Shown in pieces: positions 4,471-44,616 of a stretch of DNA of 64,000 bases. The DNA is from a virus: IMG/VR virus record IMGVR_UViG_3300025645_000055, positions 9,386 through 73,385 of that record; one strand, written 5' to 3'. The position numbers and the translations under genes were made by a program. The first letter of the stretch is position 1, and the number at the start of each line of letters is the position of its first letter. The notes beneath the pieces are model-generated. The model did not search any database and was not told where the DNA came from. It saw only the letters and a program-made list of their open reading frames with translations.

Positions 4471-6231
4471 ATGAAATTAAAACAATTATTATTATTCGGA
4501 ATTTTAACCTTAGTAATGGGGTTAACAAATGTTAACGCACAAGACTTTTATCTAAACGCTAATGGTGTCACTTGTATGTGTCCAACGGCAAATATTGGTG
4601 ATAGTGGTGTTGTTAATGGTGTTACCTATACTAAAAGAATCGCAACCGAAATAACCGATGTGAACGCATCTACTACTTGTACGAGTGGTATAACAGATAT
4701 GTCATATTTGTTTGATTCTCATTTTTCTTTTAATGGTGACATTGGAAGTTGGGATGTGAGTGATGTTATAAATATGAGTGGGATGTTTTGGGTTGCAACT
4801 GATTTTAACCAAAATATAGGAAGTTGGGATGTAAGTAATGTTATTAATATGGACAATATGTTTCGAGAAACAACTTCATTCAATCAATATTTGGGGGATT
4901 GGGATGTAAGTAATGTGATTAATATGGAGGTTATATTTTATGAATCACAATCTATTAATCAAGATTTTAGTAATTGGCAATTTAATCCTAATGTTAATTT
5001 GAATTATTTATTCAGTAAATCTGGGTTGGATACTGATAATTATGATTCCTTATTACAATCCTTTGTGAATCAGAATCTTTTAAATAAAGAGATGGTTGCT
5101 GAAGATTTAACATATTGTAATGAAACCCCCAGAAATGAATTACTCAATAATATGGGGTGGATAATTACTGAAGATTTATATCTTCAACCTAATTTAGTAG
5201 CACCAATTAATCTAAATATTGAACCCAACCCAACGACTTGTGTTGCTACTGGTGTAGACCTTGGCACACCATCCACTACAAATGGGTGTGGTGTTGGTGT
5301 TGTGACTAATAACGCACCTACTGAGTTCCCAATAGGTGAAACAATAGTTACTTGGACACTTACTGATGGAAATGGTATTACGGATACAGACACACAACTT
5401 GTTACAGTTACATTATCTGTTGATGTTGCTGAGGTTTGTTATGTGACCAGTGATGATGTTGTGGTAACTAATAATAGAATCTTTCTTTTTAATATCGATG
5501 GTCAAAATGTTGACAATTACGAAGTATTAAGAGAAACAACAACGGGTGGAGTTTATGAAACAATAGGTTTTATCATACCACCAGCAAATTCATTTTTAGA
5601 CACTACTTCCAATAATAACACTCAAGCATATCGTTACAAAGTTCAAACTTTAGATGTGTGTGGTGCAATGTCAATTGAATCACCTTATCATAAAACAATA
5701 TTATTACAAAGTAGTATTGCAGCAAATCAAACAATAAATCTTAGTTGGACACCATATGTTGGTACTGATTATACCACATATAATATTTTCAAACAGATTA
5801 ATGGTGGAACGTTTGAATTATTCACTTCAATAGCTTCAACGAATTTAACATATAATGATATTGATGTGGACATAGCATTAAATGACTATGCATACTTTGT
5901 TTCAATTGATGTTGGTGGTTGTGTCGGAACACCATTTATGTCAGAGTCGATTAAATCAAATCAAGATGGTACATTAATACTTGGTATTAATGATAATGAA
6001 CAATTGGAAAAATCAATTATATTATTTCCAAATCCAACGAGTTCAATAGTTAATATTGAATTACCAGATGATTTAACATTAAATGAAGTTAATATAATAA
6101 ACAATCTTGGTCAAATAGTTGCCCAATATAATAGTAAGTCTTTTAATATCGAAGCATTATCAACTGGATTATATTTTTTAAATATCAATACCAGTAAAGG
6201 AAGTTTCGTTAAACGTTTAATTAAAAACTAA
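4471..6231 (+). CDS. BspA/DUF285 repeat surface protein with HYR/FN3-like domains and a T9SS type A C-terminal sorting domain
   Basis: Signal peptide ending AQ; WDVSNVINM repeats; FPIGETIVTWT; C-terminal FPNPTSS...LSTGLYFLNI...KRLIKN. Confidence 0.9.
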   Translation: MKLKQLLLFGILTLVMGLTNVNAQDFYLNANGVTCMCPTANIGDSGVVNGVTYTKRIATEITDVNASTTCTSGITDMSYLFDSHFSFNGDIGSWDVSDVINMSGMFWVATDFNQNIGSWDVSNVINMDNMFRETTSFNQYLGDWDVSNVINMEVIFYESQSINQDFSNWQFNPNVNLNYLFSKSGLDTDNYDSLLQSFVNQNLLNKEMVAEDLTYCNETPRNELLNNMGWIITEDLYLQPNLVAPINLNIEPNPTTCVATGVDLGTPSTTNGCGVGVVTNNAPTEFPIGETIVTWTLTDGNGITDTDTQLVTVTLSVDVAEVCYVTSDDVVVTNNRIFLFNIDGQNVDNYEVLRETTTGGVYETIGFIIPPANSFLDTTSNNNTQAYRYKVQTLDVCGAMSIESPYHKTILLQSSIAANQTINLSWTPYVGTDYTTYNIFKQINGGTFELFTSIASTNLTYNDIDVDIALNDYAYFVSIDVGGCVGTPFMSESIKSNQDGTLILGINDNEQLEKSIILFPNPTSSIVNIELPDDLTLNEVNIINNLGQIVAQYNSKSFNIEALSTGLYFLNINTSKGSFVKRLIKN

Positions 6232-9055: not shown

Positions 9056-9234
9056 TGGCAGAAAGAAAAACAAAGTGTGATGTGTGTGATAGTACTAAAT
9101 TTATAATTCAACATACTATACCCCAAAAAATGTTAGTCAAACAATTACAAATGGTACAAGCTAAATGTATATGTGGTAATATTTTTGAGTTCGTAAGACG
9201 CACACCTGGAGTGGGTAGAGGCAGAATTCTATAA
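9055..9234 (+). CDS. Small zinc-ribbon protein (59 aa, not in ORF track)
   Basis: CDVC...CICG; start overlaps the previous stop (taatg). Confidence 0.6.
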   Translation: MAERKTKCDVCDSTKFIIQHTIPQKMLVKQLQMVQAKCICGNIFEFVRRTPGVGRGRIL

Positions 9235-9261
9235 ATTTTTTAAAAGTTTTTCCAAAAAGAC

Positions 9262-9551
9262 TTGCTTTTTATAAAAAGTTGTCTTATATTTGTACCATAA
9301 TAATTACAATGACTTGTAGTCGGGGGCTTCTAATCAAACGGGAGTTATACGTAATCATACTGGAAATGGAAGTGTAAGTCTTCCCAGGTCAACAAAAAAA
9401 AATAAATTAAAAGTTTTTTAAATAAAACTTGCTTTATTAAAATAATAGTTCTATATTTGCACTGTTGTTAATTTGAAAGACAACGAAAAAAAATATATTA
9501 AAAGTTTTTTAAAAAAAACTTGCTTTATTAAAATAATAGTCTTATATTTGC
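9262..9551 (+). promoter_or_regulatory. Three tandem Bacteroidota sigma70-type promoters driving the RNA island
   Basis: cttgc-N~18-tatatttg at about 9262-9292, 9429-9459 and 9520-9550; the last two are near-identical ~50-bp repeats. Confidence 0.8.
9310..9392 (+). ncRNA. tRNA-like RNA with atypical D and anticodon regions
   Basis: Acceptor tgacttg/caggtca; T-like arm ggaag-tgtaagt-cttcc. Confidence 0.5.
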
Positions 9552-9576
9552 AGAGTCGTTTAGAAATAGATGACAC

Positions 9577-9592
9577 GTTCATTAAAATATTG
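9577..9592 (+). promoter_or_regulatory. boxA-like antitermination element
   Basis: gttcattaaaatattg between the promoters and the giant RNA; second copy at 11644-11662. Confidence 0.5.
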
Positions 9593-9597
9593 AAAAT

Positions 9598-10575
9598 ATG
9601 GGGTGCTTATACTCCAGTCTTCGGACAAGGATAGACCAGCAATGGTTTAAAGTAGTAGATTTAGTGTCTATTGCGTTGCATTAACCCTTCGGGGTTAGAC
9701 AATCCACGTAAGCATGATTACCAAACCGTATCAAGGGCATCTGCTGAGATACGAAACCCACAACTTATGGGGATTGAGTAGAAATACAATAGTAAGGTAG
9801 TTAGAATCAGATATCCTAAAAGGGGGTATTGTTTGACTAAACGGTGTAAAAGCTATTGGTTGGATTCATTAAGAAATTTTATGGGACTTATCTTCGGGTA
9901 ATAAGTGAAATGATTAACATGATGGTAAAACATTATATCGAGGCGTTGTATTCTTAACCACTCAAAAGGTGGCACGAATGTCAACCAGCAGACACGTCTT
10001 GAAACTTAGAGTGAGGCTTATACCAGAGTTAAATGGTGCATTTTTTTTTGATAAAAATAAAAAGAGAAAGTTCTGTTGGACTAGAACTGAAAATTAAGTT
10101 ATGCCGTTGAAATATATGGCTGGTTGATTCCTCTCAAGGGATGAGATTAAATTTGATGAGTACATGTCATAAGGAACGGGGTCGCACTCGTTTATTCTCG
10201 CAAGGAACCTGGGCAAAGAAAGCTAGATTATATAAGTTCTATGTAGCAGAGTTATGGTCACTCTAAGACCAACTTAATGTTATCTACTTGAAGGAAACTG
10301 ATAGTGTGTGAAAAAGCTGAAAGGCATATAAATGATAACGGGGGCAACCCACTTGCTGAACACTCAAGCATAAATCTGGGCGTACTACTTCAACTTGTTG
10401 GAGGGAGTGCAATAGGTTCAAATCCTTTTACGCCCACTAAATTATATTTCGAGAGTACTAGATAACAAATTCCAGTCGATGTACTCGTTAAGAACCTATC
10501 CGCAAGATAGGAATATACCCAAGAGTAATGGATTGTGAGGGAATTGTATAATTTAAACTAAGAATCTCATCATAT
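9598..10575 (+). ncRNA. Giant structured ncRNA, GOLLD-like
   Basis: About 980 nt with no ORF of 60 aa or more; UUCG/GNRA hairpins; long-range pairs 9603-10/9708-15, 9740-46/9986-92, 9699-9706/10529-36, 10140-48/10563-71; next to tRNAs and enclosing a tRNA-like element. Confidence 0.7.
10378..10436 (+). ncRNA. D-armless tRNA-like element, copy 1, inside the giant RNA
   Basis: gggcgta/tacgccc acceptor; agg-ttcaaat-cct T arm; one central hairpin. Confidence 0.65.
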
Positions 10576-10631
10576 GGATGAATATAAGCTTTGTAATGAA
10601 GATTATTTTAAATAAGTTGAGGTTTTTAAAC

Positions 10632-10700
10632 GGGGATTTCGTCTAAGACAAAGGCAGCACCACACCAGGTGTTAATGAAGTATCGAACCTTCAATCCCCA
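10632..10700 (+). ncRNA. tRNA-like RNA with a 6-nt ACACCA loop
   Basis: Cloverleaf ggggatt/aatcccc, gtct/aggc, gcacc/ggtgt, gaag/cttc. Confidence 0.7.
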
Positions 10701-10780
10701 CAAATATAGTTGGTTGGACTATAATAGGATTATGGTACCCCTTTGAAGGGTTTAATGTTAGAAACTTAATTTTATAAACT

Positions 10781-10848
10781 GCGAGTTTCGTCTAAGCTAA
10801 GACGCTATCCCACCAGATAGAAATGAAGTATCGAATCTTCGACTTGCA
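10781..10848 (+). ncRNA. tRNA-like RNA with a 6-nt CCACCA loop
   Basis: Cloverleaf gcgagtt/gacttgc, gtct/agac, ctatc/gatag, gaag/cttc; paralog of 10632-10700. Confidence 0.7.
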
Positions 10849-10852
10849 CAAA

Positions 10853-11021
10853 TTTTGAAGTGGTGAAAGGAAGACACCCTACGGAATATAAAACTGTCCT
10901 TTGAGAATGGTGTGTGGAGCAACTGTGATTAGTACCTCCAACAGTAAAGTAGAGTCTAACCGACTAATAATCAAAAAGTCGGAACAATTAGAATAGTTAG
11001 TTTCATGGCTAACCTTCAAAA
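10853..11021 (+). ncRNA. Expanded tRNA-like RNA (~170 nt)
   Basis: Closing stem ttttgaag/cttcaaaa; Leu-like 5' end gtggtgaaaggaagacac; terminal hairpin gttagt/gctaac. Confidence 0.45.
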
Positions 11022-11023
11022 AT

Positions 11024-11082
11024 GGGCGTACTATCACAAGTTATTGTGAGAAGTGTGTTAGGTTTAAATCCTTTTACGCCCA
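11024..11082 (+). ncRNA. D-armless tRNA-like element, copy 2
   Basis: Same acceptor and T arm as 10378-10436 but a different central hairpin (tcacaa/ttgtga). Confidence 0.65.
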
Positions 11083-11112
11083 CTATAGTTTCGAAAACTT
11101 AAATTGAGAAAC

Positions 11113-11187
11113 CGAGAGGTAGCTCAGTTTGCTCAGAGCGTCACCCATTGGGGGTGGAGGTCGTTGGTTCGAATCCAACCCTCTCGA
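11113..11187 (+). tRNA. Atypical tRNA with a Pro-type acceptor (C1:G72, A73) and anticodon loop CATTGGG
   Basis: Full cloverleaf with TTCGAAT; A33; TTG at the canonical anticodon position; no D-loop GG. Confidence 0.7.
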
Positions 11188-11276
11188 CAAAAATTAAAAT
11201 AAATTAACAAAAAACGTAACTTTAATATAGTTACACATATTTAATAGAAAGGGATAAACCCTAAACAATAGAAATT

Positions 11277-11381
11277 ATGATGAATTATACGACAACATAT
11301 CAAAAGCAGTATCCGCAAGGGGGGAAACCTAGTGGGCTGGACTTGTCGTGTATTTACTCTAAAGGTAAAACAGGTGTGTAA
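11277..11381 (+). CDS. Putative attenuator leader peptide MMNYTTTYQKQYPQGGKPSGLDLSCIYSKGKTGV
   Basis: 34-codon ORF after an A-rich start context (gaaattatg), overlapping alternative stems upstream of a terminator. Confidence 0.75.
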   Translation: MMNYTTTYQKQYPQGGKPSGLDLSCIYSKGKTGV

Positions 11382-11408
11382 ATAAATCAATTACATAACT
11401 TAAACGGT

Positions 11409-11445
11409 AAGCTCAGCTATAAAGAAATTTAGTTGGGCTTTTTTC
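11409..11445 (+). terminator. Intrinsic terminator (attenuator) ahead of the tRNA array
   Basis: aagctcagcta...tagttgggctt plus T-tract; first tRNA starts 16 nt later. Confidence 0.85.
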
Positions 11446-11460
11446 ATGCCCAAATTTCAA

Positions 11461-11555
11461 CGGGTAATGTGCGAGTGGTTTAAGCAATCGGTCTTGGAAG
11501 CCGATGACAATTTCAAGAAGGTTATTGTCCGTAGGTTCGAATCCTACTTACCCGA
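11461..11555 (+). tRNA. tRNA-Pro(TGG) with a long variable arm (class II-like body)
   Basis: cgggtaa/ttacccg, loop CTTGGAA, variable stem gacaat/attgtc, T arm gtagg-ttcgaat-cctac. Confidence 0.8.
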
Positions 11556-11563
11556 CTAAACAT

Positions 11564-11636
11564 CGGGATGTATATCAATTGGTAGATTACGTGCTTTGGG
11601 AGTACGAGGTTGCTGGTTCGAGTCCAGTCATCCCGA
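11564..11636 (+). tRNA. tRNA-Pro(TGG)
   Basis: Canonical cloverleaf, loop TTTGGGA. Confidence 0.95.
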
Positions 11637-11643
11637 CAGAATG

Positions 11644-11662
11644 AAAGTTCATTGACATGTTG
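11644..11662 (+). promoter_or_regulatory. boxA-like antitermination element
   Basis: aaagttcattgacatgttg, resembling Bacteroidota rrn boxA as recalled. Confidence 0.55.
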
Positions 11663-11732
11663 GTTAAGTAAAATATAGAAGTCTAGGGAGCCATTGCTCT
11701 TAAAACGTCCAACCTAGAAACTTCTATAATAT

Positions 11733-11805
11733 TGGGATATGGTGTAATTGGTAACACGTCTGTTTTTGGTGCAGAAGAGTATGGGTTCGAGACCCGTTGT
11801 CCCAA
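11733..11805 (+). tRNA. tRNA-Gln(TTG)
   Basis: Cloverleaf, loop TTTTGGT, U1:A72. Confidence 0.9.
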
Positions 11806-11812
11806 CTAATAT

Positions 11813-11885
11813 TGCCCTATGGTATAACGGTTAATACGTCTGGTTTTGAACCAGAAGATTGGGGGTTCGAATCCGTCTAGGGTAA
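11813..11885 (+). tRNA. tRNA-Gln(TTG)
   Basis: Cloverleaf, loop TTTTGAA. Confidence 0.9.
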
Positions 11886-11958
11886 CAATAAAGATATTTG
11901 GGAGACTGTTATTAATTCATAGAACCTATTGCGAGTGGTATCATAGAATTAAAATTAT

Positions 11959-12031
11959 TGGGGTATGGTGTAATGTGTAACATTCAAGATTTTGGTCCTT
12001 GAGAGTGTCGGTTCGAGTCCGTCTACCCCAA
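11959..12031 (+). tRNA. tRNA-Gln(TTG)
   Basis: Cloverleaf, loop TTTTGGT. Confidence 0.9.
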
Positions 12032-12182
12032 CTATATTGTGTGCGTAACTAAGGTATTTAGGAGTATACATAACAAGTAGTTGACTTAGTACTATCAATG
12101 AAAAGTATGTGGAAAATGATACAGTTTGAACGGAATCCCATGTTGGGGAGAGATATGAGTGCAAGCCTCATCAATATAAATT

Positions 12183-12264
12183 GGGAGTATTGAGCAACTG
12201 GTTGCTCAGCAGACTGTAAATCTGTGGTCTTACGACATTGGGGGTTCGAATCCCTCTACTCCCA
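12183..12264 (+). tRNA. tRNA-Tyr(GTA)
   Basis: gcaga-CTGTAAA-tctgt; variable arm; TTCGAAT. Confidence 0.92.
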
Positions 12265-12269
12265 CAATT

Positions 12270-12350
12270 GGGAACTAAAAGCCATTCGGATATGGCATCG
12301 GGACTGTAAATCTCGTCCTTCGGGGAGTGGTTCGAGTCCACTAGGTCCCA
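12270..12350 (+). tRNA. tRNA-Tyr(GTA) with an atypical D arm
   Basis: cggga-CTGTAAA-tctcg; variable hairpin cc-ttcg-gg; T arm agtgg/ccact. Confidence 0.85.
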
Positions 12351-12423
12351 CAATTGGTCACAGATGAAACGACCAGTCTTCACAGAAAGACTTCCTCATG
12401 AGGGGATATAAATAAAGCTGCAT

Positions 12424-12493
12424 GGGTTGTGAAAGGATACTAGCCGAGGTTGTAACCCTCTAGCTTTGTAGGGTTCGAGTCCCTATCAGCCCA
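12424..12493 (+). tRNA. Degenerate or atypical tRNA-Tyr(GTA) with a reduced D arm
   Basis: gggttg/cagccc; gagg-TTGTAAC-cctc; taggg-ttcgagt-cccta. Confidence 0.6.
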
Positions 12494-12498
12494 CAACT

Positions 12499-12631
12499 TG
12501 ACTATAATTGGTCGGCAATGTTAATGTAGTGTTTGAGAGCAAACCGTATAATCTCGGCAAACCATCATTAATGAATGAGTTATGTATGTTACATCATAAC
12601 CTTTTGTGGGGTTCGACTCCCCAATGGTCAA
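12499..12631 (+). ncRNA. Expanded tRNA-like RNA (~133 nt)
   Basis: tgactat/atggtca acceptor; canonical T arm tgggg-ttcgact-cccca; two internal hairpins. Confidence 0.6.
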
Positions 12632-12667
12632 CACGCTAGGCTAGTAAGTGTCCAACACGCTAGGCTA
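12629..12667 (+). repeat. Direct repeat caacacgctaggcta, two copies
   Basis: Seen directly between tRNA genes. Confidence 0.7.
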
Positions 12668-12671
12668 ATAT

Positions 12672-12743
12672 TCCTTCGTAACTCAGAGGCAGAGTACCGT
12701 GCTTTTAACACGGGAGTCGTGATATCGTAATTCACCGAGGGAA
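12672..12743 (+). tRNA. tRNA-Lys(TTT) with an atypical T loop
   Basis: ccgtg-CTTTTAA-cacgg; T loop atcgtaa. Confidence 0.8.
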
Positions 12744-12822
12744 CAAAAATTAGTAGCATATGCTCGATGAACGACTATGTACATGTAAGTAGGGATACTA
12801 GTCATGTTACTAATTTTAATTT

Positions 12823-12895
12823 GCACCCGAAGCTCAAGTGGACGGGCTTCCCGCTTTTAACGGGAAGGTTACGGGTTCGAGGCCCGTGGGGTGCA
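12823..12895 (+). tRNA. tRNA-Lys(TTT)
   Basis: tcccg-CTTTTAA-cggga; T arm acggg/cccgt. Confidence 0.88.
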
Positions 12896-12900
12896 CAAAT

Positions 12901-12984
12901 GCGATGTTAGTGTAAGTCAAAGATTCTAGATTAAACACGCAACCCATAGGGGTTGAGATGGGGGTTCAAGTCCTTTGCATCGCT
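12901..12984 (+). ncRNA. Gly-acceptor tRNA-like RNA with an enlarged D loop and a 6-nt anticodon loop
   Basis: gcgatgt/gcatcgc plus U73; caacc-catagg-ggttg. Confidence 0.6.
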
Positions 12985-12989
12985 CAAAT

Positions 12990-13083
12990 GATAGTATAGT
13001 GAAATATTCTGTGTAGACGTACATATAAAAATCACACCTTCTGCTTAGGTTGGAATAATTGGTATGAAATCCAATTACTATCT
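12990..13083 (+). ncRNA. tRNA-like RNA with a D-loop hairpin insertion and a degenerate anticodon arm
   Basis: gatagta/tactatc; gtga/tcac enclosing tgtgta-gacg-tacata; T-like arm attgg/ccaat. Confidence 0.55.
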
Positions 13084-13088
13084 TAATT

Positions 13089-13159
13089 GCCGATATCGTA
13101 TAACGGTATTACGTGCCCTTGGTAGGGGTGAAATCTCAGCTCGTTTCTGAGTATCGGCT
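13089..13159 (+). tRNA. tRNA-Thr(GGT)
   Basis: gccgata/tatcggc; loop TTGGTAG; T loop ctcgttt. Confidence 0.85.
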
Positions 13160-13160
13160 C

Positions 13161-13316
13161 TAAGTTTATTAATAAGTGGGTAAAACCTTGAGGCATCCCC
13201 CTCGGACTATGACGGCTTATATTTGACGATATAAGTGTTCAAGTTTCTGGTCAAGCAATGCACCAGGTTTGGTGGAATCACCTTACAAAAGCGAGGATTA
13301 ATATTAATAGACTTAA
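13161..13316 (+). ncRNA. Unknown structured RNA (~155 nt) between tRNAs
   Basis: 13-bp closing stem taagtttattaat/attaatagactta enclosing GC-richer hairpins. Confidence 0.5.
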
Positions 13317-13318
13317 CT

Positions 13319-13401
13319 GCGAATATCGTATAATGGAGGGGAAACCCGTATTATAGTGGCCTTCCAAGTCACGGATGAGAGTTCGATTCTCTCTATTCGC
13401 T
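13319..13401 (+). tRNA. tRNA-Gly(TCC) with a GAAA hairpin in the D loop
   Basis: Loop CTTCCAA; U73; insert ggg-gaaa-ccc. Confidence 0.88.
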
Positions 13402-13409
13402 CAATAATT

Positions 13410-13496
13410 GCCTCTATAGCTCAGTTGGTTTGGCGAAAGCCTTAGAGCAGCCCCCTTTTAAGGGGCAGGTCGTAGGTTCGAATCCTACTGGGGGTA
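13410..13496 (+). tRNA. tRNA-Lys(TTT) with a GAAA hairpin in the D loop
   Basis: gcccc-CTTTTAA-ggggc; insert ggc-gaaa-gcc. Confidence 0.88.
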
Positions 13497-13555
13497 CTAA
13501 GTTAGTTATGACATTATGATTTGAGGCTTAATCATCCTCTTTAACTAACTTTATT

Positions 13556-13626
13556 GCGAGATGTAGCTTAATGGCAAAGCATCGGCCTTCCAAGTCGAGG
13601 ATGCGGTTCGACCCCGACATTTCGCA
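13556..13626 (+). tRNA. tRNA-Gly(TCC) with an 8-bp acceptor and short T stem
   Basis: gcgagatg/catttcgc; loop CTTCCAA; A73. Confidence 0.75.
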
Positions 13627-13634
13627 CTAAAAAT

Positions 13635-13720
13635 GCCCCCCTAGTATAATGGAGACGAAAGTCGTATTACCTTGGATTTGTAACCCAAAGATATCAGTTC
13701 GATTCTGATGGGGGGCTCCA
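13635..13720 (+). tRNA. tRNA-Thr(TGT) with a GAAA hairpin in the D loop; CCA encoded
   Basis: Loop TTTGTAA; insert gac-gaaa-gtc. Confidence 0.88.
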
Positions 13721-13725
13721 TACCA

Positions 13726-13810
13726 GCCGATGTCGCATAGTGGTCTATTGCACTTGATTTGTAATCAAGAGAAAGAAATTTCATCGTCAGTTCGAATCTG
13801 ACCATCGGCT
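13726..13810 (+). tRNA. tRNA-Thr(TGT) with a long variable arm
   Basis: cttga-TTTGTAA-tcaag; variable stem gaaa-gaaa-tttc. Confidence 0.88.
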
Positions 13811-13825
13811 CACATATTTATTAGT

Positions 13826-14287
13826 ATGAAAAACTTAATCAACAAAATCTGGGCGTTCATCAAACTAATGCTACCTAATAGCTGGTTTCCAGAAGACGTA
13901 ATAATTTACGCTATCGAAGATGATATGAAATCGTGGAAACTTATTGAAGTTCTCATTGTTAGAGAAATAAATAAGTATAGAATCGAAAATGGTCTTAAAC
14001 CAGTATCTGGTGAGTTAAACACCAAGCTAGAAACAAAGATAAGAAGCGACTTTATGTCGGATGAAGAAAAACTATCCCACGATGGTTTTGGTGTATCATC
14101 AAGAAGACTTAAAGATATGGGGTTTAAAAGTGTTGGTGAAATTATAGCCTATGGTTATACAAATGGTGGTGATGTGGTTCATGCTTGGAAAAATAGTCCA
14201 AGTCATAATCGTGTATTACTTGGAAATTATAAATACCTGGGTGTTAGTAAAACTGATAGATATTATTGTGTAATATTTACCAGATAA
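13826..14287 (+). CDS. CAP/SCP domain protein
   Basis: INKYRIENGL, LSHDGF, GEIIAYG, WKNSPSHNRVLL. Confidence 0.9.
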   Translation: MKNLINKIWAFIKLMLPNSWFPEDVIIYAIEDDMKSWKLIEVLIVREINKYRIENGLKPVSGELNTKLETKIRSDFMSDEEKLSHDGFGVSSRRLKDMGFKSVGEIIAYGYTNGGDVVHAWKNSPSHNRVLLGNYKYLGVSKTDRYYCVIFTR

Positions 14288-14289
14288 AT

Positions 14290-14400
14290 GCGAGTGTAGC
14301 TCAGTTGGTTAGAGCGTTATTTAAATCATGCGGGAGTAGCTCAATGGTAGAGCGATACGTTACCAACGTATAGGTTGAGGGTTCGAATCTGATTACTCGC
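14290..14400 (+). pseudogene. Chimeric tRNA: 5' fragment (14290-14317) plus a tRNA-Gly(ACC) body (14330-14400)
   Basis: atacg-TTACCAA-cgtat; the 3' end tactcgc pairs with the upstream gcgagtg, not with its own 5' end. Confidence 0.65.
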
Positions 14401-14406
14401 CAAATT

Positions 14407-14434
14407 AAGGATGACATAAATGTTATCCTTTTTT
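14407..14434 (+). terminator. Terminator closing the tRNA array
   Basis: aaggatgacat-aa-atgttatcctt plus T-tract. Confidence 0.8.
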
Positions 14435-14469
14435 ATTTGTTTTATTCGATTAATTGAACTATATTTGTT

Positions 14470-14540
14470 AAATGATAGGAGTATGAGTCCGTACATAAAA
14501 ATTGGTCGAATAGGACATCGCTACCAAAACCTATCATTTT
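14470..14540 (+). ncRNA. Three-way-junction leader RNA with a possible kissing loop
   Basis: aaatgatagg/cctatcattt; loop gtcc complementary to loop ggac; starts just after the promoter tatatttg. Confidence 0.45.
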
Positions 14541-14562
14541 TTAATAAATAAAACAAAGAATT

Positions 14563-14802
14563 ATGATTAGAATTATTAAAGTATTAATGGATTTCGGGAT
14601 GGATTTTGAATATGAAAATCGTGGGTCTGAAGGTGAGAAGATTGTTTCCTATGAACTAGGGTTAGATATATCCAACCAAAATGGTAAGATATATTACTCT
14701 TGTGGTTGTGAACCAGAAACAGTTGAAGATGTAGATTTTGAATACATGCGACTTGCTAGTGAAGTACAAGACGAATGTATCGCACAAACAGCATCCTTTT
14801 AA
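14563..14802 (+). CDS. Hypothetical protein
   Basis: ORF with A-rich start context. Confidence 0.7.
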   Translation: MIRIIKVLMDFGMDFEYENRGSEGEKIVSYELGLDISNQNGKIYYSCGCEPETVEDVDFEYMRLASEVQDECIAQTASF

Positions 14803-14803
14803 T

Positions 14804-15127
14804 ATGAGTGATGATGTAGCTTGCCCATATTGTGGCACATACCAAGAGATTAACCACGATGATGGTTATGGGTATGAAGAAGATGGAAATCATGAACAAC
14901 AATGTTATAATTGTGAAAAGAATTTTATCTTCACAACCGCAATAATATATCATTATGAAGGTTATAAAGCAGATTGTTTGAATGGTGATGAACACTTATA
15001 TAAACCAGTGCCAACTGCACCTAGGTGTTACGCTAAAATGAGGTGTGAAATGTGTGGTATTGAAAGAGAACCAACGGAAGATGAAAAAGTAACATATAGT
15101 ATACCAGAAAAACCGAATTATGATTAA
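14804..15127 (+). CDS. Zinc-ribbon phage protein
   Basis: CPYC, CYNC, CEMC; start moved to 14804. Confidence 0.75.
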
Positions 15128-23553: not shown

Positions 23554-24537
23554 ATGGATATTAAGAAAACAGTAAACCCAGAAGATTATAGTGTTGGTGT
23601 GATAGTTGCACGGTTTCAAACCCACGAATTACATGACCCACACAAAGAGATGATTGATATCGTCTGTGATAATCATAAAAAGGTACTTATTTTCCTTGGA
23701 ATATCTACAATTCCAAATACCAAAAGAAACCCATTAGATTTTGCCACTAGAATGGTGATGATACAAGAATATGCACCAAAAGCGGTGATTATACCAATTA
23801 AGGATAATCGTTCTAATTTAGTATGGAGTAAATATTTAGATTCACAAATATCATTAATATTTGGTGATGCTAATGTTAAACCATTACTATATGGTAGTAG
23901 AGATTCTTTTATCCCATTCTATGAGGGTAGATTTGATACTGCTGAATTAACAAGCGATGTTATGATTAGTGGTACTGAAATAAGAAATAACGTTTCCAAA
24001 GAAATCCTAATGTCTCAAGACTTCCGAGCTGGGGTTATACACGCAAATTACGCACAAAGAGCAGTATCATATCCAACGGTTGATGTTGTTGCATATAATG
24101 ATAAAGGTCAAATCTTAATGGCTAAGAAACCAAACGAAGACAAGTATAGATTTGTTGGTGGATTTGTTGACACAAGTGATAATAGACTTGAACATTCTGC
24201 TAGACGAGAGTTTATGGAAGAAACTGGTGGTAGTGGTGAAATAGGTGAATTAAAATATGTTTGTTCACAAGCCATTGATGATTGGAGATATAAGAAAGAA
24301 GACTCTGGTATTATGACCACACTCTTTATTGGTTATTTCAGATGGGGTTATGTAAGACCCTCAGATGATATTAGTGAACTTAAATGGATGGACTTCTCTA
24401 GATTCTTAGATATGGGTTATATTAAACATAATATGATGCCAGAACACGAAACCTTAATGATTACCCTTGTTAATAAAATTAAAGATGGTACATTAGGTAT
24501 TAAAACACTTGAAGAACAAAATACAGAAAAACTATAA
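23554..24537 (+). CDS. Bifunctional NMN adenylyltransferase / Nudix hydrolase (NadM-Nudix)
   Basis: VARFQTHELHDPH, RNPLDF, SGTEIR; Nudix box GGFVD..ARREFMEETG. Confidence 0.9.
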   Translation: MDIKKTVNPEDYSVGVIVARFQTHELHDPHKEMIDIVCDNHKKVLIFLGISTIPNTKRNPLDFATRMVMIQEYAPKAVIIPIKDNRSNLVWSKYLDSQISLIFGDANVKPLLYGSRDSFIPFYEGRFDTAELTSDVMISGTEIRNNVSKEILMSQDFRAGVIHANYAQRAVSYPTVDVVAYNDKGQILMAKKPNEDKYRFVGGFVDTSDNRLEHSARREFMEETGGSGEIGELKYVCSQAIDDWRYKKEDSGIMTTLFIGYFRWGYVRPSDDISELKWMDFSRFLDMGYIKHNMMPEHETLMITLVNKIKDGTLGIKTLEEQNTEKL

Positions 24538-24538
24538 T

Positions 24539-26200
24539 ATGGAAACATTAGAACTAAATAAACAAGGGGTTAAGACAGTTACCTTACCCAAGCGTAAGAT
24601 AGCAGACGTACCTAGACTATTATGGGCAGATGCCTATACTGCTGGGTCAAATAAGTTTCAATCGGCTAAAGCTAAACAAGAATCTGTTTACTATGTCACA
24701 TTCCGTAGACAACTATCTACTGTTAATCCACTCTTATATAATGTGGGTGATGATAGAATTATCTTCGGTGGTCTACAACGACTATTAGAGAAGATTTTCT
24801 ATGAACCAGTAACACATAAAGAGATTGATGATGCTAAGGAATTTCTTTCTACATTCAAAGCCACAACATTAGGTTATGCAGAATATGAGTTTCCAGAGGA
24901 AATGTGGAGAACAGTTGTAGACGAATATAACGGTAGACCACCAATCCTTATTAAAGGGATGCCAGAGGGTTCTGTTGTATATCCTAATGAACCAGTTGTA
25001 CAAGTTACATCAATGGTTGATGGTATGGGTGAATTAGCAGCTTGGTTTGAATCTACCATCCTTAAGGTATGGGCAGTTTCAGAACGTATCACACAGAACG
25101 AACATTGGATTACAAAACTTAAAGGTATGATTCATGGAATTGAACCAGATTTAGATGATGAATCTGTTCACTTTCAAGCATCACTTATGCTTACCGATTT
25201 CGGTGACAGAGGTGGTATAACACCAGAAGAATCAGAAGAATTAGGTATGGCTCACTTATATACGTTCCCAGGTACAGACACATGTTCTGGGGCATATCAA
25301 GCTTGGTATAATGCTAATAAAACACCAGTGGGTAGTAGTGTTAATGCACTTGCCCATAGAAACGTACAAGCATATAAATTAGAAAATGATGTTTATGAAG
25401 CGATTTATAACTCATGTAAAGATAACGAAATCATTTCGATGGTTGCCGATTGTTACGATTTCTACTATGCAGTAAGAGAATACTTATTACCACTAGCACT
25501 CCGTAGTATCAAAGAAGAAAATGGAAAGGTTGTAGTGGGTAGACCAGACTCTGGAAATGCAGTAGAACAAGTCCTATGGCTTTGTAGACTAGCTAAGAGA
25601 TATGGTTTATATACCACAAAGGTAATTGATGGTGTTGAGTGGTACTTCGGTACAACACTTAAGTTCATCGAGGGTGATGGAATGAAATATGATACAATGT
25701 GGGAAATCATTCAAGCATTAGAAAAAGAAGGATTTGCACCACACGGTTGGGGATTATTTGGCGTAGGTGGTGGACTAAGAAATGGTATCAAAAGAGATAA
25801 CCTTTCTGCTAAATACGCACTATGTTCAATGGGTTACGACCACGTTGGTGTTACAAAGTTCTCTGAAACACTAGGTAAAACTACTTTACCTGGACCTTTC
25901 AAAGTTTTAAGAAGTGCCGAAGCATTACATAATAAAGAAACCATAGTGTTTGATACTGAAAAAGGAGAAGATGCAATGGTGGTTTACTATGATGGTTCTA
26001 ATATATACAAACCATTTGGTGAGGGTCAAGATGATGACTTCTTAGTTATTAGAGCAAGGATTAGAGAACAGTGGGATAGTATGCCACTTAATCTAACATC
26101 TGATACTAATCATAATTATCCAGCTAGTAAAGCAATACTTGCAAAACGTATTGAATTACTTAAGGAATATGCACCTAATAAACACGCTAAAAACTACTAA
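24539..26200 (+). CDS. nadV: Nicotinamide phosphoribosyltransferase (Nampt/NadV)
   Basis: ADAY, DFGDRG, GTDT, VADCYD, RPDSG, EGDG, FGVGGGL. Confidence 0.9.
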   Translation: METLELNKQGVKTVTLPKRKIADVPRLLWADAYTAGSNKFQSAKAKQESVYYVTFRRQLSTVNPLLYNVGDDRIIFGGLQRLLEKIFYEPVTHKEIDDAKEFLSTFKATTLGYAEYEFPEEMWRTVVDEYNGRPPILIKGMPEGSVVYPNEPVVQVTSMVDGMGELAAWFESTILKVWAVSERITQNEHWITKLKGMIHGIEPDLDDESVHFQASLMLTDFGDRGGITPEESEELGMAHLYTFPGTDTCSGAYQAWYNANKTPVGSSVNALAHRNVQAYKLENDVYEAIYNSCKDNEIISMVADCYDFYYAVREYLLPLALRSIKEENGKVVVGRPDSGNAVEQVLWLCRLAKRYGLYTTKVIDGVEWYFGTTLKFIEGDGMKYDTMWEIIQALEKEGFAPHGWGLFGVGGGLRNGIKRDNLSAKYALCSMGYDHVGVTKFSETLGKTTLPGPFKVLRSAEALHNKETIVFDTEKGEDAMVVYYDGSNIYKPFGEGQDDDFLVIRARIREQWDSMPLNLTSDTNHNYPASKAILAKRIELLKEYAPNKHAKNY

Positions 26201-37389: not shown

Positions 37390-37934
37390 TGGGTTTTTTA
37401 ACAACACTTAAGGCTGCTGTAGATGGTAATGAACCTGCGTTGGAAAAAATTCATGATAAAATATTTAATGTCGTAGATTTTAACTGTATGAGATTTAGCA
37501 CATCCAAATTGGATGGTGAAGATAATATACAAGAATGCTACATTAAGATTATGAATAAACTTCACACCTTTAATGGTAGAAGTTATAAGTCATTAAACAC
37601 ATGGGTTAAACATATATGTGTTAACTATTCGATAGACCAGTATCGTAAGAAGAATAATATTATTTCTGGAGAAGATATTTCTGAATATATAAACCACTAT
37701 TCAGATGAAGAAGAAACCGAAGCTAAAACATATTCTATTGATGATTTTATAGATGTTATTGATAGATTAGGTGATAAACAACGTATGATATTTAACCTAT
37801 TCGTACTTGATGGTTTTAGTCATAAAGAAATAAGTGTGGAACTTAACATAAGTATTGATGCATCCAAAAGTGGTCTTTACTTAGCTAAAAAAAACCTAAG
37901 AAAGTTCTCAAAAACAAAACAACAAAAACTATGA
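37389..37934 (+). CDS. ECF (sigma24-like) sigma factor
   Basis: EDNIQECYIKI, TWVKHICVNYSID, region 4 DGFSHKEISVELNIS. Confidence 0.85.
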   Translation: MGFLTTLKAAVDGNEPALEKIHDKIFNVVDFNCMRFSTSKLDGEDNIQECYIKIMNKLHTFNGRSYKSLNTWVKHICVNYSIDQYRKKNNIISGEDISEYINHYSDEEETEAKTYSIDDFIDVIDRLGDKQRMIFNLFVLDGFSHKEISVELNISIDASKSGLYLAKKNLRKFSKTKQQKL

Positions 37935-43661: not shown

Positions 43662-43740
43662 TACCAAATATAGTTGAAACTCTATTTTAATAGAACTATC
43701 TTTGTCATCAATAATAACTATAATAACATCCTTAACCTAT

Positions 43741-44616
43741 ATGAGAGTACTAAAAATCGGTAGTGGCTACACTATAAAAGAATCTGAAAGTTTAAAACAA
43801 TATTTAAAGGATGTATCAAAAATACCTTTATTCGCATCATCTGATGCTGAAGCTGAATGTGCTCAAAGAGCATTTGGGGGTGATAAAAGGGCTATTGATG
43901 AATTAGTAAGTAGAAACCTAAGATTTGTTATTAGTGTTGCAAAACAACACAAGACCACCAACGTACTATTAGATGATTTAATCAACGAGGGTAATATAGG
44001 TTTGCTTGAAGCTGCTACCAAGTTTGACCCAAGTCATGGTAATAAATTTATATCCTTTGCCGTTTGGTATATTAGGAAAGATATCATGAAGTATGTATAC
44101 ACCCATGAAAGGGTTGTAAGGGTACCTCTCAACAAGTTAAACGCATTAAATATGCTTAATAATGAAATCTGTGCTGCCGAACAAGAAACTGGTGGTAAGG
44201 TATCTATGAGTGAAATTCAAGAAAGAGAAAATTTAAACCATTTAACAACATCTAAAATGTCAGATTTATTGGCATTAAGCACTAGTAATACCATGTCAAT
44301 TGACACACCATTAACTGGTGGTGAATCAACAAGATATTCTGATGTGATGGAATCTAAGGAGTTTGATGATACTGATGGAAAGTTAATTAATGAACAACAA
44401 TTAGATAGATTAAACCTATTGTTAGATAGGCTTGATTATGATACTGCTTTTGTTGTTAAGATGTACTATGGTATTGATTGTTTTTATCCTTTAAAACTAG
44501 AAGAAATAGGTGAAATCCTAGGTTTATGTAGTGAACGTGTTAGACAAATTAAAATCAGTGGACTTAAAAAACTTAAAGAATTAGGTAATGTGGTTGAGTT
44601 TAGAGATATGCTTTAG
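43741..44616 (+). CDS. Sigma70 RpoD/SigA-family sigma factor (Bacteroidota-like)
   Basis: YLKDVSK, NLRFVISVAKQ, DLINEGNIGL, KFISFAVWYIR, ERVRQIK. Confidence 0.93.
   Translation: MRVLKIGSGYTIKESESLKQYLKDVSKIPLFASSDAEAECAQRAFGGDKRAIDELVSRNLRFVISVAKQHKTTNVLLDDLINEGNIGLLEAATKFDPSHGNKFISFAVWYIRKDIMKYVYTHERVVRVPLNKLNALNMLNNEICAAEQETGGKVSMSEIQERENLNHLTTSKMSDLLALSTSNTMSIDTPLTGGESTRYSDVMESKEFDDTDGKLINEQQLDRLNLLLDRLDYDTAFVVKMYYGIDCFYPLKLEEIGEILGLCSERVRQIKISGLKKLKELGNVVEFRDML

What the first reader, a model, noticed from the sequence alone, without database searches (positions are those of the whole stretch)
11277..14434. Candidate new system: a tRNA-depletion-sensing attenuator controlling a matched phage tRNA array
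Seen: a 34-aa ORF (11277-11381) lies just upstream of an intrinsic terminator (11409-11445), and the tRNA array begins 16 nt after it. Codons 4-18 (11286-11330) read YTTTYQKQYPQGGKP, 15 consecutive codons using only Tyr, Thr, Gln, Lys, Pro and Gly. These are exactly the six isotypes with readable anticodons downstream (Pro x2, Gln x3, Tyr x3, Lys x3, Thr x3, Gly x3); no other isotype was found. Alternative pairings are visible. First, tatacgacaa (11286-95) pairs with ttgtcgtgta (11343-52), enclosing 11330-38. Second, tagtgggct (11330-38) is a near copy of the terminator 3' arm (tagttgggct) and can pair with its 5' arm agctcagcta, forming an antiterminator. Established: trp/his/thr-type ribosome-stalling attenuation; host defences that cleave tRNAs (PrrC and PARIS on tRNA-Lys, retron PtuAB on tRNA-Tyr); rescue by phage tRNAs. 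Inference: when the host depletes or cleaves any of these tRNAs, the ribosome stalls in the leader, the antiterminator forms and replacement tRNAs are transcribed. This would be a multiplexed, inducible anti-defence switch. I know of no described attenuator controlling phage tRNA genes, but I cannot search the literature. Caveat: a stall on the last codons (GGKP) may itself cover the antiterminator.
Basis: partly seen in the sequence, partly recalled or inferred. Interest (0 to 1): 0.96.

Follow-up and report, generated by a model that had tools for sequence, protein, structure and literature searches.

The report
Codon-matched leader attenuator before phage tRNAs
A tiny gene written almost only in the six amino acids whose tRNAs follow it, wired to a switchable transcription stop, sits in front of this phage's tRNA genes, and related phages with other tRNA sets carry matching tiny genes, so the phage probably makes these tRNAs only when ribosomes run short of them.

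Summary
The 34-codon ORF (11277-11381), the hairpin plus T-run (11409-11444) and the tRNA array starting 16 nt later are all there. The run of 15 codons drawn from Pro/Gln/Tyr/Lys/Thr/Gly is the longest in all six frames of the 73-kb contig (next 7; 3e-4 expected). In five related phage contigs, 10 of 10 arrays of four or more tRNAs with upstream sequence have a short ORF and terminator. Leader composition follows array content: PQYKTG, PHQ, SHWIMNR, CVL, FEDA, plus an 11-isotype class. The true pairing is the best of 5040 permutations. In one 306-kb phage four such units partition all 20 amino acids. An ORF segment just after the sensor codons pairs with the terminator 5' arm and changes with it. 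Footprint-constrained folding switches at the end of the sensor run in most units. This is a trp/his-type, multivalent leader-peptide attenuator applied to tRNA genes. Seven literature searches found no published account. This scan has noted the same class on other DNA. The anti-defence purpose, translation and regulation in vivo remain untested; negative feedback on tRNA supply is the simpler reading.

The parts
11113..11188 (+). tRNA-like gene upstream of the leader. Its anticodon loop is atypical (A at position 33). It is conserved in L032 with a different 'anticodon'.
   Evidence: ARAGORN calls it Gln(ttg). Rfam tRNA 54.7 bits. The L032 homologue is called Ser(tga).
11216..11276 (+). Conserved 5' leader region: small hairpins at 11216-11234 and 11251-11261, then an A-rich stretch before the ATG. 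No Bacteroidota-type -7 box was found here.
   Evidence: Near-identical in L032. No TAnnTTTG within 160 nt upstream in W and L032, although 8 of 10 units have one.
11277..11381 (+). Leader ORF, 34 codons
   Evidence: Homologous ORFs in L032, G001 and G004 have in-frame indels and residue changes that stay within the set.
11286..11330 (+). Sensor run: 15 consecutive codons for Y, T, Q, K, P and G. They are read by 6 of the 8 distinct anticodons of the array.
11286..11295 (+). Region 1: 5' strand of the anti-antiterminator hairpin P1
   Evidence: MFE fold. Duplex -14.9 kcal/mol.
11330..11345 (+). Region 2: antiterminator strand, a near copy of the terminator 3' arm that pairs with the terminator 5' arm
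   Evidence: Duplex -9.1 and -9.7 kcal/mol. It forms in the MFE when the sensor is held single-stranded.
11343..11352 (+). 3' strand of P1, which pairs with 11286-11295
11409..11444 (+). Intrinsic terminator: 11-bp stem (11409-11419 with 11430-11440), 10-nt loop, T-run 11439-11444
   Evidence: Not listed by the consensus scan because of its loop limit.
11461..14401 (+). Regulated tRNA array: Pro x2, Gln x3, Tyr x2-3, Lys x2-3, Thr x2-3, Gly x3, plus tRNA-like elements without a readable anticodon. A CAP-domain ORF is embedded at 13826-14287.
14407..14430 (+). Terminator-like hairpin plus T-run that closes the unit

Best explanation
The element is a ribosome-mediated (leader-peptide) transcription attenuator that gates a roughly 3-kb tRNA operon.

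Transcription enters the 34-codon leader. With no ribosome, or once a ribosome has run through, region 1 (11286-95) pairs with 11343-52 and sequesters region 2 (11330-45). The terminator (11409-44) then forms and RNA polymerase stops 16 nt before the first tRNA. If the ribosome lingers on the Tyr/Thr/Gln/Lys/Pro/Gly sensor codons, it holds region 1 open. Such lingering would follow when the cognate charged tRNAs are scarce. Region 2 then pairs with the terminator 5' arm and transcription reads into the array.

The products of the array are the tRNAs that decode the sensor, so the circuit is a negative-feedback regulator of tRNA supply, with 'any of six isotypes limiting' as its input.

Shown here: the parts, their geometry, their conservation, and the co-variation of leader codons with array content.

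Inferred: that the leader is translated, that readthrough is conditional, and the direction of the response.
For: (1) Rarity and position. The 15-codon run is unique in the contig: next longest 7, expected 3e-4. 22 of 33 residues are in the set against a background of 0.32, p = 3.6e-5.

(2) Homologues. Three homologous leaders sit in front of syntenic arrays: L032, G001/L113 and G004/L115/L118. Sensor columns are 60 of 63 in the set and tail columns 21 of 63. By eye, indels in the sensor are whole codons and many changes are synonymous.

(3) Co-variation with array content:
- Pro/His/Gln arrays have MKNL[LV]NIQP[QV]PQQHPQ...
- The Ser/His/Trp/Ile/Met/Asn/Arg array has MRTINIHMISISNWRRNSH...
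- The Cys/Val/Leu array has ...LVLLSLCLLVV...
- The Phe/Glu/Asp/Ala array has ...FDFAFFAAEED...
- An 11-isotype array has ...SINHISNSVQPQFKNCWS...
The true leader-array pairing scores best of 5040 permutations, and 6 of 7 leaders rank their own set first. The four G004 sets partition all 20 amino acids.

(4) Anticodon level. All distinct anticodons are sampled by codons before the switch point in 8 of 10 units. W samples 6 of 8 and G001 7 of 8.

(5) Frequency. 10 of 10 arrays of four or more tRNAs with upstream sequence have an ORF plus terminator.

(6) Antiterminator. The best ORF partner of the terminator 5' arm lies at codons 18-29, just after the sensor. Its energy is -9.7 to -15.6 kcal/mol in 9 of 10 units. 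Shuffled ORFs reach that value in 3.3% of trials or fewer in 8 of 10 units. Its sequence follows the terminator. W has arm AGCUCAGCUA with copy UAGUGGGCU. Relatives have ACCCAGUU with ACUGGG or ACUGAG. The PHQ units have CCCCAUUC with GAAUGGGG.

(7) Footprint-constrained folding of the transcript lacking the 3' arm. In W the probability that the 5' arm is paired upstream is 0.34 with no ribosome, 0.7-0.8 with the A site on codons 1-16, and 0.3-0.5 from codon 17 to the stop. I read a clear drop near the end of the sensor run in 8 of 10 units.

(8) No room for a promoter. The T-run to tRNA distance is 13-16 nt in 6 of 10 units, and no Bacteroidota -7 box lies between the stop codon and the first tRNA in 10 of 10. 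The array must therefore be reached through the terminator.

(9) Weak expression evidence. Contigs from RNA libraries of three studies cover the leader. Those of three runs cross the terminator into tRNA-Pro: X9 11224-11517, X11 11263-11477, X13 11370-11517, at depth 2-5.
Against: There is no experimental evidence of translation, stalling or regulated readthrough.

The RNA-library contigs are shallow and could be DNA carry-over.

In W the antiterminator is the weakest of the nine that have one: -9.7 kcal/mol, matched by 15% of shuffled ORFs. The G004 Phe/Glu/Asp/Ala unit has no convincing antiterminator inside the ORF (-4.7; 68% of shuffles).

In 5 of 10 units the folding model predicts the antiterminator even without a ribosome (P 0.7-0.9). 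In L032 and the FEDA unit the drop is weak or not clean. So the default state is not uniform and the thermodynamic model is crude.

The L117 Asp/Glu leader matches its called array only over five codons (p = 0.53 over the whole ORF). That array runs to the contig end and holds undecoded tRNA-like genes.

W and L032 show no recognisable promoter before the leader.

The PQYKTG leaders also share residue order, so a function of the peptide itself is not excluded for that class.

All related units come from one broad phage group found by sequence-based probes, so they are not fully independent.
Confidence: 0.8

Rival explanations
1. Same attenuator, but its biological purpose is counter-defence. 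It is a tripwire that fires when host anticodon nucleases or other tRNA-depleting defences remove any of the six tRNAs, releasing replacement phage tRNAs.
For: The architecture would respond to any fall in cognate charged tRNA. The array holds two to three divergent copies per isotype and unusual bodies: a class-II-like tRNA-Pro, D-loop hairpin inserts and odd loops. Such features would fit nuclease evasion. Published work proposes that phage tRNAs escape anticodon nucleases (PMC10264068: title and abstract start from the listing, two passages). Lys and Tyr as nuclease targets are recalled, not checked here.
Against: Nothing here points to defence in particular. In G004 the same device covers all 20 amino acids in four operons. 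That looks like general supply control rather than a response to particular nucleases. No tRNA repair or nuclease-inhibitor genes were looked for or seen next to the array.
Confidence: 0.25
2. An ordinary terminator ends the upstream GOLLD/tRNA-like transcription unit, and a small ORF happens to lie before it. The codon match is chance and the array has its own promoter.
For: A tRNA-like gene and a GOLLD-like RNA lie directly upstream. W has no recognisable promoter before the leader.
Against: The run is expected 3e-4 times per genome. The ORF, the residue set and the geometry are conserved. Other arrays have other matching leaders, with the true pairing 1 of 5040 permutations. Only 16 nt separate the T-run from the first tRNA, and there is no -7 box there.
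Confidence: 0.03
3. The leader is a functional micro-protein, or a translation-independent RNA sensor whose codon triplets pair directly with tRNA anticodons (T-box-like or a tRNA sponge). It is not a stalling sensor.
For: Residue order is conserved in the PQYKTG class (TTY.KQY.P.GGK). The sensor triplets are by construction complementary to the array's anticodons.
Against: Across classes the peptides are unrelated apart from a short N-terminus, yet each matches its own array. The start codon, frame and stop are kept, with whole-codon indels. The tail of the ORF is conserved as RNA pairing, not as peptide. No T-box or other riboswitch family scored at E <= 1 in 10500-15000.
Confidence: 0.07

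Closest known systems
Multivalent leader-peptide attenuators of amino-acid operons (E. coli/Salmonella ilvGMEDA: Ile/Val/Leu; thr: Thr/Ile; also trpL, hisL, leuL, pheL). Recalled textbook knowledge; pheL paper PMC3082878 seen only as a search listing.
   Same: A short translated leader enriched in regulatory codons. Three overlapping hairpins: 1:2 anti-antiterminator, 2:3 antiterminator, 3:4 intrinsic terminator. A stall on the regulatory codons frees region 2. Several amino acids are sensed by one leader.
   Different: The regulated genes are tRNAs, not biosynthetic enzymes, so the output feeds back directly on decoding of the sensor. Six to eleven isotypes are sensed at once, in runs of 9-17 codons. 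The sensor samples individual anticodons of the array. The element is phage-borne and comes in sets of up to four per genome that partition the code. No Rfam leader family matched.
pheST (pheM leader) attenuator controlling phenylalanyl-tRNA synthetase in E. coli. Recalled, not checked here.
   Same: Leader-peptide attenuation applied to a component of the translation apparatus rather than to a biosynthetic pathway. It senses charged tRNA through ribosome speed.
   Different: It has one amino acid and a protein product. Here many isotypes are sensed and the tRNAs themselves are the product.
T-box riboswitches
   Same: Conditional terminator/antiterminator choice that reports the state of a specific tRNA and controls genes of the tRNA-charging supply chain.
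   Different: A T-box binds uncharged tRNA directly through a specifier codon and the T-box bulge, without translation. Here an ORF with start and stop codons is conserved, and no T-box model scored.
Inducible tRNA L-array (trn operon) of Anabaena sp. PCC 7120 (PMC8421152, PMC10272220)
   Same: A supernumerary, horizontally mobile tRNA array that is silent by default and switched on when translation is impaired (abstract starts seen in the listing).
   Different: Control there is attributed to a protein repressor, TrcR (title and abstract start). The words 'attenuat', 'leader' (in PMC8421152, 'leader peptide') and 'terminator' occur 0 times in the main texts. It is a cellular megaplasmid, not a phage.
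Phage tRNAs as counter-measures to tRNA-targeting defences (PMC10264068; T5 tRNAs versus PARIS or retron systems are recalled only)
   Same: Phage tRNA clusters proposed to replace host tRNAs lost during infection.
   Different: Those studies concern the tRNAs themselves. 'attenuat', 'leader' and 'promoter' occur 0 times in PMC10264068. No sensing or regulatory device is described.

Membership tests
Ribosome-mediated (leader-peptide) transcription attenuators | Short ORF with a start codon in the transcribed leader, upstream of the regulated genes | tested here: met
   34-codon ATG ORF at 11277-11381. ORFs of 24-35 codons are present in 10 of 10 units.
Ribosome-mediated (leader-peptide) transcription attenuators | Clustered regulatory codons that correspond to the regulated pathway or product | tested here: met
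   15-codon run unique in the genome. Binomial p = 3.6e-5. Leader-array pairing is the best of 5040 permutations. Anticodon sampling is complete in 8 of 10 units.
Ribosome-mediated (leader-peptide) transcription attenuators | Intrinsic terminator between the leader ORF and the regulated genes, with no promoter after it | tested here: met
   Hairpin plus T-run at 11409-11444, -12.8 kcal/mol. 16 nt to the first tRNA and no -7 box there. No transcription start mapping was possible.
Ribosome-mediated (leader-peptide) transcription attenuators | Antiterminator mutually exclusive with the terminator, placed just downstream of the regulatory codons | tested here: met
   Present in 9 of 10 units at codons 18-29. 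It changes together with the terminator arm across units. In W it is only moderately strong: -9.1 and -9.7 kcal/mol, with 15% of shuffles as good.
Ribosome-mediated (leader-peptide) transcription attenuators | Anti-antiterminator (1:2) pairing that a stalled ribosome disrupts | tested here: met
   11286-95 with 11343-52 in the MFE fold. Duplexes of -12.6 to -16.1 kcal/mol in the four PQYKTG units. The footprint model switches at codon 16/17. In 5 of 10 units the model does not need this pairing.
Ribosome-mediated (leader-peptide) transcription attenuators | Leader is translated, and readthrough responds to charged-tRNA supply in vivo | not testable with these tools
   The only data are shallow RNA-library contigs that cover the leader and cross the terminator.
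Ribosome-mediated (leader-peptide) transcription attenuators | Regulated genes are amino-acid biosynthesis or aminoacyl-tRNA synthetase genes (the classical scope) | tested here: not met
   The regulated genes are tRNAs plus one CAP-domain ORF. This is the point of novelty.
Rfam leader families (His_leader, Thr_leader, Leu_leader, Trp_leader and similar) | Match to the family covariance model | tested here: not met
   cmscan of 10500-15000 at E <= 1 returned only tRNA, Plastid-ycf2 and mascRNA rows. The gathering scan of the whole window returned tRNA only.
T-box riboswitch | Specifier loop and T-box sequence (match to the Rfam T-box model) | tested here: not met
   No T-box row.

The most novel reading that the evidence does not exclude
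Large phages of Bacteroidota carry a complete, self-regulating decoding supply. Their tRNA genes are split into a few operons, four in G004, which together cover all 20 amino acids. Each operon sits behind a multivalent leader peptide that samples every anticodon of its own operon. The phage thereby measures, codon family by codon family, how well the infected cell decodes, and tops up only what is limiting. The same circuit doubles as a tripwire against host tRNA-cleaving defences. This would be the first attenuation system whose output is the very molecule that it senses.
Probability: 0.35. Interest if true: 0.93.

Novelty: new variant of a known kind. Interest (0 to 1): 0.88.

Why it matters
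Why phages carry tRNAs, and how those tRNAs are expressed, has been debated for decades: codon compensation, replacement of degraded host tRNAs, or escape from anticodon nucleases. A codon-matched attenuator in front of each array would show that the phage itself measures decoding speed at exactly the codons its tRNAs read, and expresses the tRNAs on demand.

That makes the competing hypotheses directly testable. One can ask what induces readthrough: nuclease attack, starvation or late-gene codon demand.

It would also extend a textbook mechanism, trp/his attenuation, to RNA genes, with the product feeding straight back on the sensor. It would show sensing of up to eleven amino acids by one leader. 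And it would give a compact natural part that reports the availability of chosen tRNAs.

The pattern is easy to search for, so many phage tRNA arrays could be re-annotated as regulated operons.

Tried and rejected
Relatives by single proteins. The CAP-domain ORF, the 238-aa upstream ORF and the 639-aa nuclease gave no relative in viral contigs. blastn of 9200-14500 against deposited phages gave only tRNA-sized hits.

The CAP-protein alignment in viral contigs gave 30 distant loci (38% identity or less). I saw no PQYKTG-type array among their ARAGORN lists, and I did not inspect them for leaders. The metagenome scan gave 80 loci, of which only L032 was syntenic.

The contigs of the closer CAP homologues P0002 (61%, 191 kb) and P0003 (58%) could therefore not be fetched.

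The exact leader-upstream 20-mer gave 0 hits in viral contigs.

119 loci were screened and 7 of them held attenuator-like units. The other 112 were not inspected further.

Genome contigs gave 0 hits for the leader pattern. The tRNA-Pro pattern gave one hit there (L243), which lies in what looks like coding sequence of a MAG labelled Anaerovoracaceae, with no tRNA called at the place. I rejected it as chance.

L112 holds a single tRNA-Gln and was not used.

The MAFFT alignment A2 of the four PQYKTG units misaligned the terminators. I therefore did not run the count of structure pairs or build a covariance model. Covariation is described from per-sequence duplexes instead.

RNA evidence. Contig depth cannot rank expression. 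Parts without cover, and the shared contig end at 11517, are not interpreted. Joints in tables 5 and 5c look like other organisms' tRNAs. Runs with small shares were not used for habitat.

Structure prediction, fold search, complex prediction, the protein-atlas search and the search of protein representatives were not used, since no protein question was open.

Supplements of papers were not opened.

The idea that the leader of the contig's first array (Glu/Asp/Phe/Ala, genome 51-2807) could be checked failed, because the contig starts 50 nt before its first tRNA.

Full report
WHAT IS THERE. The window is bases 9386-73385 of a single 73,385-bp, 33% G+C virus record. Its nearest deposited relatives by one protein (the T5 A1-like DNA transfer protein) are phages of Flavobacteriia: Maribacter, Cellulophaga and Flavobacterium, at 39-45% identity. 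Runs that hold the stretch are mostly freshwater metagenomes.

Between 9200 and 14430 there is almost no long ORF. The region holds a GOLLD-like RNA, a tRNA-like gene (11113-11188), the 34-codon ORF (11277-11381) and a hairpin plus T-run (11409-11444). Then come 14 ARAGORN tRNAs from 11461 to 14401: Pro 2, Gln 3, Tyr 2, Lys 2, Thr 2, Gly 3. Relaxed settings and Rfam add a third Tyr and Lys and, with its anticodon read by eye, a third Thr. A terminator-like hairpin closes the unit at 14407-14430.

IS IT MORE THAN CHANCE? Codons 4-18 of the ORF use only the six amino acids of the array. In all six frames of the contig this run of 15 is the longest. The next is 7, the expected number of runs of 15 or more is 3e-4, and 100 shuffles reached 7-11. 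Over the whole ORF, 22 of 33 residues are in the set against a background of 0.32 (p = 3.6e-5).

RELATIVES. An alignment of homologues of the CAP-domain ORF inside the array found one syntenic locus among 80 in metagenomes, L032. DNA patterns from the array's tRNA-Gln and from its odd long-armed tRNA-Pro found L113 (record G001), L114/L115/L118/L119 (records G002 and G004), L116 and L117 (record G003).

Upstream of each array lies a homologous or analogous short ORF plus hairpin and T-run. The ORFs are:
- L032: MMNTTTYQGKQYPKGGKLIALGLLCQNILTRTKVL
- G001: MTTVTTYTKQYQPKGGKPQGQLSMRCYNDEEEG
- G004: MKTQTTYQTQYQPKGGKPFRSTGCVMFSDLTTI

Against W, the sensor differs by whole-codon indels, synonymous changes and replacements that stay within the set. 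In the peptide alignment, 60 of 63 cells in columns 4-19 are in the set. In the tail only 21 of 63 are, which is the background level. The tail is conserved as RNA pairing, not as peptide.

THE CO-VARIATION TEST. Arrays with other contents have other leaders:
- Pro x3, His x2, Gln x3: MKNLLNIQPQPQQHPQDGEWGSSA (L116) and MKNLVNIQPVPQQHPQMPEWGRYT (L117)
- Ser, His, Trp, Ile, Ile, Met, Asn, Asn, Arg, Arg, Ser: MRTINIHMISISNWRRNSHQMSGMSNCQGGTEV
- Cys, Val, Leu, Leu, Val, Leu: MRNTFNILVLLSLCLLVVNTAGLCVC
- Phe, Glu, Asp, Ala: MRTLTNIFDFAFFAAEEDYSFGRSNTVIS
- Gln, Phe, His, Arg, Ser, Pro, Asn, Lys, Val, Cys, Trp: MKTSINHISNSVQPQFKNCWSADSYGSGGIS

Binomial p-values are 4e-6 to 2e-2, except for the L117 Asp/Glu unit (0.53). 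There only DDAEE matches, and the array is incompletely decoded and reaches the contig end.

With seven leader classes and their seven sets, the true pairing has the highest score of all 5040 permutations, and 6 of 7 leaders rank their own set first.

In G004 the four sets contain 7+3+4+6 = 20 different amino acids. The enrichment matrix is 1.8-3.6 on the diagonal and 1.1 or less off it.

At anticodon level, every distinct anticodon of the array is sampled by a codon before the switch point in 8 of 10 units. For example, both Arg, both Ser, all three Leu and both Gly anticodons are sampled in G004. W samples 6 of 8.

All 10 arrays of four or more tRNAs that have upstream sequence carry such a unit. 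Four clusters of one or two tRNAs in G004 do not. The first array of the window's own contig is cut by the contig end.

STRUCTURE. All 10 units fold a terminator in the MFE structure. The best partner of the terminator 5' arm within the ORF lies at codons 18-29, directly after the sensor. Its energy is -9.7 to -15.6 kcal/mol in 9 of 10 units and rarely reached by shuffled ORFs: 0-3.3% in 8 units, 15% in W. The Phe/Glu/Asp/Ala unit fails.

This partner is a near copy of the 3' arm and follows it from unit to unit. The 5' end of the sensor pairs with the stretch just behind region 2, at -12.6 to -16.1 kcal/mol in the four PQYKTG units. That gives the classical 1:2, 2:3, 3:4 layout.

I folded the transcript without the 3' arm and blocked a 28-nt footprint around each A-site codon. 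In W, the 5' arm is paired upstream with P 0.34 without a ribosome, 0.7-0.8 for codons 1-16, and 0.3-0.5 from codon 17 to the stop. I read a clear drop near the end of the sensor run in 8 of 10 units. It is weak or not clean in L032 and in the Phe/Glu/Asp/Ala unit. In 5 of 10 units the model already predicts the antiterminator without a ribosome, so there the running ribosome itself would have to cover region 2.

The distance from the stop codon to the 5' arm is 22-33 nt in all units. The T-run to tRNA distance is 13-16 nt in 6 of 10. A Bacteroidota-type TAnnTTTG box lies 36-89 nt before the ATG in 8 of 10 units, but not in W or L032. No such box lies between the stop codon and the first tRNA in any unit. 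That TAnnTTTG is the Bacteroidota -7 consensus is recalled.

EXPRESSION. Contigs from three metatranscriptome runs of three studies cover the leader at 100% identity. In all three runs they cross the terminator into tRNA-Pro, at depth 2-5. This shows that the readthrough form occurs in RNA libraries. It does not show regulation, and DNA carry-over cannot be excluded.

MECHANISM AND RIVALS. The best-supported reading is a multivalent leader-peptide attenuator whose output, the tRNAs, decodes its own sensor. That is negative feedback on tRNA supply. The anti-defence reading is compatible but unsupported by anything specific. Chance, a plain terminator, a micro-protein and a translation-independent RNA sensor are each disfavoured by the conserved frame, the class-specific match and the lack of T-box or leader family hits.

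KNOWN OR NEW? Seven full-text searches found no paper describing a leader-peptide attenuator before tRNA genes. The nearest in print, the inducible Anabaena tRNA array, does not contain the words attenuat, leader (or leader peptide) or terminator. The phage-tRNA/anticodon-nuclease paper has no attenuat, leader or promoter. Subscription journals outside the library were not searched.

This scan's own notes describe the same class in several other phage genomes, including Caulobacter phiCbK-like, marine Bacteroidota and lake phages, and on this genome. I treat those as leads, not evidence.

VERDICT. The attenuator with codon-isotype matching is strongly supported in silico, and its purpose and in vivo behaviour are open. 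It is a new variant of a known kind of regulation and of high interest.

Noticed in passing
window 9477-10370 (+); L032 about 5740-6180: GOLLD-like large RNA directly upstream of the tRNA region. The Rfam GOLLD model is matched over its full length at 57 bits, E = 1e-13, but below the gathering score of 150. It is conserved in L032 with what look like compensatory stem changes (by eye). Contigs from three metatranscriptomes cover 9477/9653-10341/10368 at word depth 381-1235, against 30 or less for neighbouring parts. Sequencing adapter follows directly at 10341 and 10368.
   Followed up: partly
window 11113-11188; L032 6484-6558: tRNA-like gene between the GOLLD-like RNA and the leader. Its anticodon loop lacks U33 (A in W, G in L032), and its 'anticodon' differs between the two phages (ttg versus tga) although the rest is nearly identical. 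It may be a 3' tRNA-like end of the upstream RNA rather than a decoder.
   Followed up: no
window 11461-11556: tRNA-Pro(UGG) of 96 nt with a long variable arm (class-II-like body). A degenerate pattern over its D arm to variable arm hit 7 stretches of viral contigs, all in tRNA arrays of this phage group, and it is present in L032.
   Followed up: partly
window 13319-13720: Gly(tcc), Lys(ttt) and a probable Thr(tgt) tRNA carry an extra short hairpin with a GAAA loop inside the D loop. Because of this, ARAGORN needs intron or relaxed settings for two of them.
   Followed up: no
window 12496-12640 and 12901-12985: Elements with acceptor and T-arm features of tRNAs but long, odd interiors and no readable anticodon. 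Similar split-looking tRNA-like genes occur in the first array (L001 2046-2175) and in L117.
   Followed up: no
L001 (genome 51-2807, outside the window): Second tRNA array of the same phage: Glu x3, Asp x4, Phe x3, Ala x2, interspersed with small ORFs. It is the same four-isotype set as the G004 Phe/Glu/Asp/Ala operon. Any leader it has would lie beyond the contig start.
   Followed up: partly
L120 and L121 (record G004, 306 kb): Four leader-gated tRNA operons whose isotype sets (SHWIMNR, CVL, FEDA, PQYKTG) partition all 20 amino acids without overlap. The CVL and FEDA operons are adjacent, with the second attenuator sitting inside the tRNA cluster.
   Followed up: yes
all leader units: Leaders of different classes share an N-terminus of the form M-(K/R)-(T/N)-x-x-N-I and an AACAUAY word around codons 5-7, which forms the 5' strand of hairpin P1. 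This suggests that the units arose by duplication and then re-coding of the sensor.
   Followed up: no
window 13826-14287: A 153-aa CAP/SCP-domain protein (Pfam PF00188, PHROG 16914) is encoded inside the tRNA array, before the last tRNA-Gly. It lies at the same place in L032, so it would be co-regulated with the tRNAs.
   Followed up: partly
window 24509-26200, 43702-44616, 37931-39634: Nicotinamide phosphoribosyltransferase homologue (PHROG 448, 1e-55), a phage sigma factor (PHROG 351) and a T5 A1-like DNA transfer protein (PHROG 1745). No structural genes turned up among the ten ORFs scanned, so the contig is probably a fragment of a larger genome.
   Followed up: no
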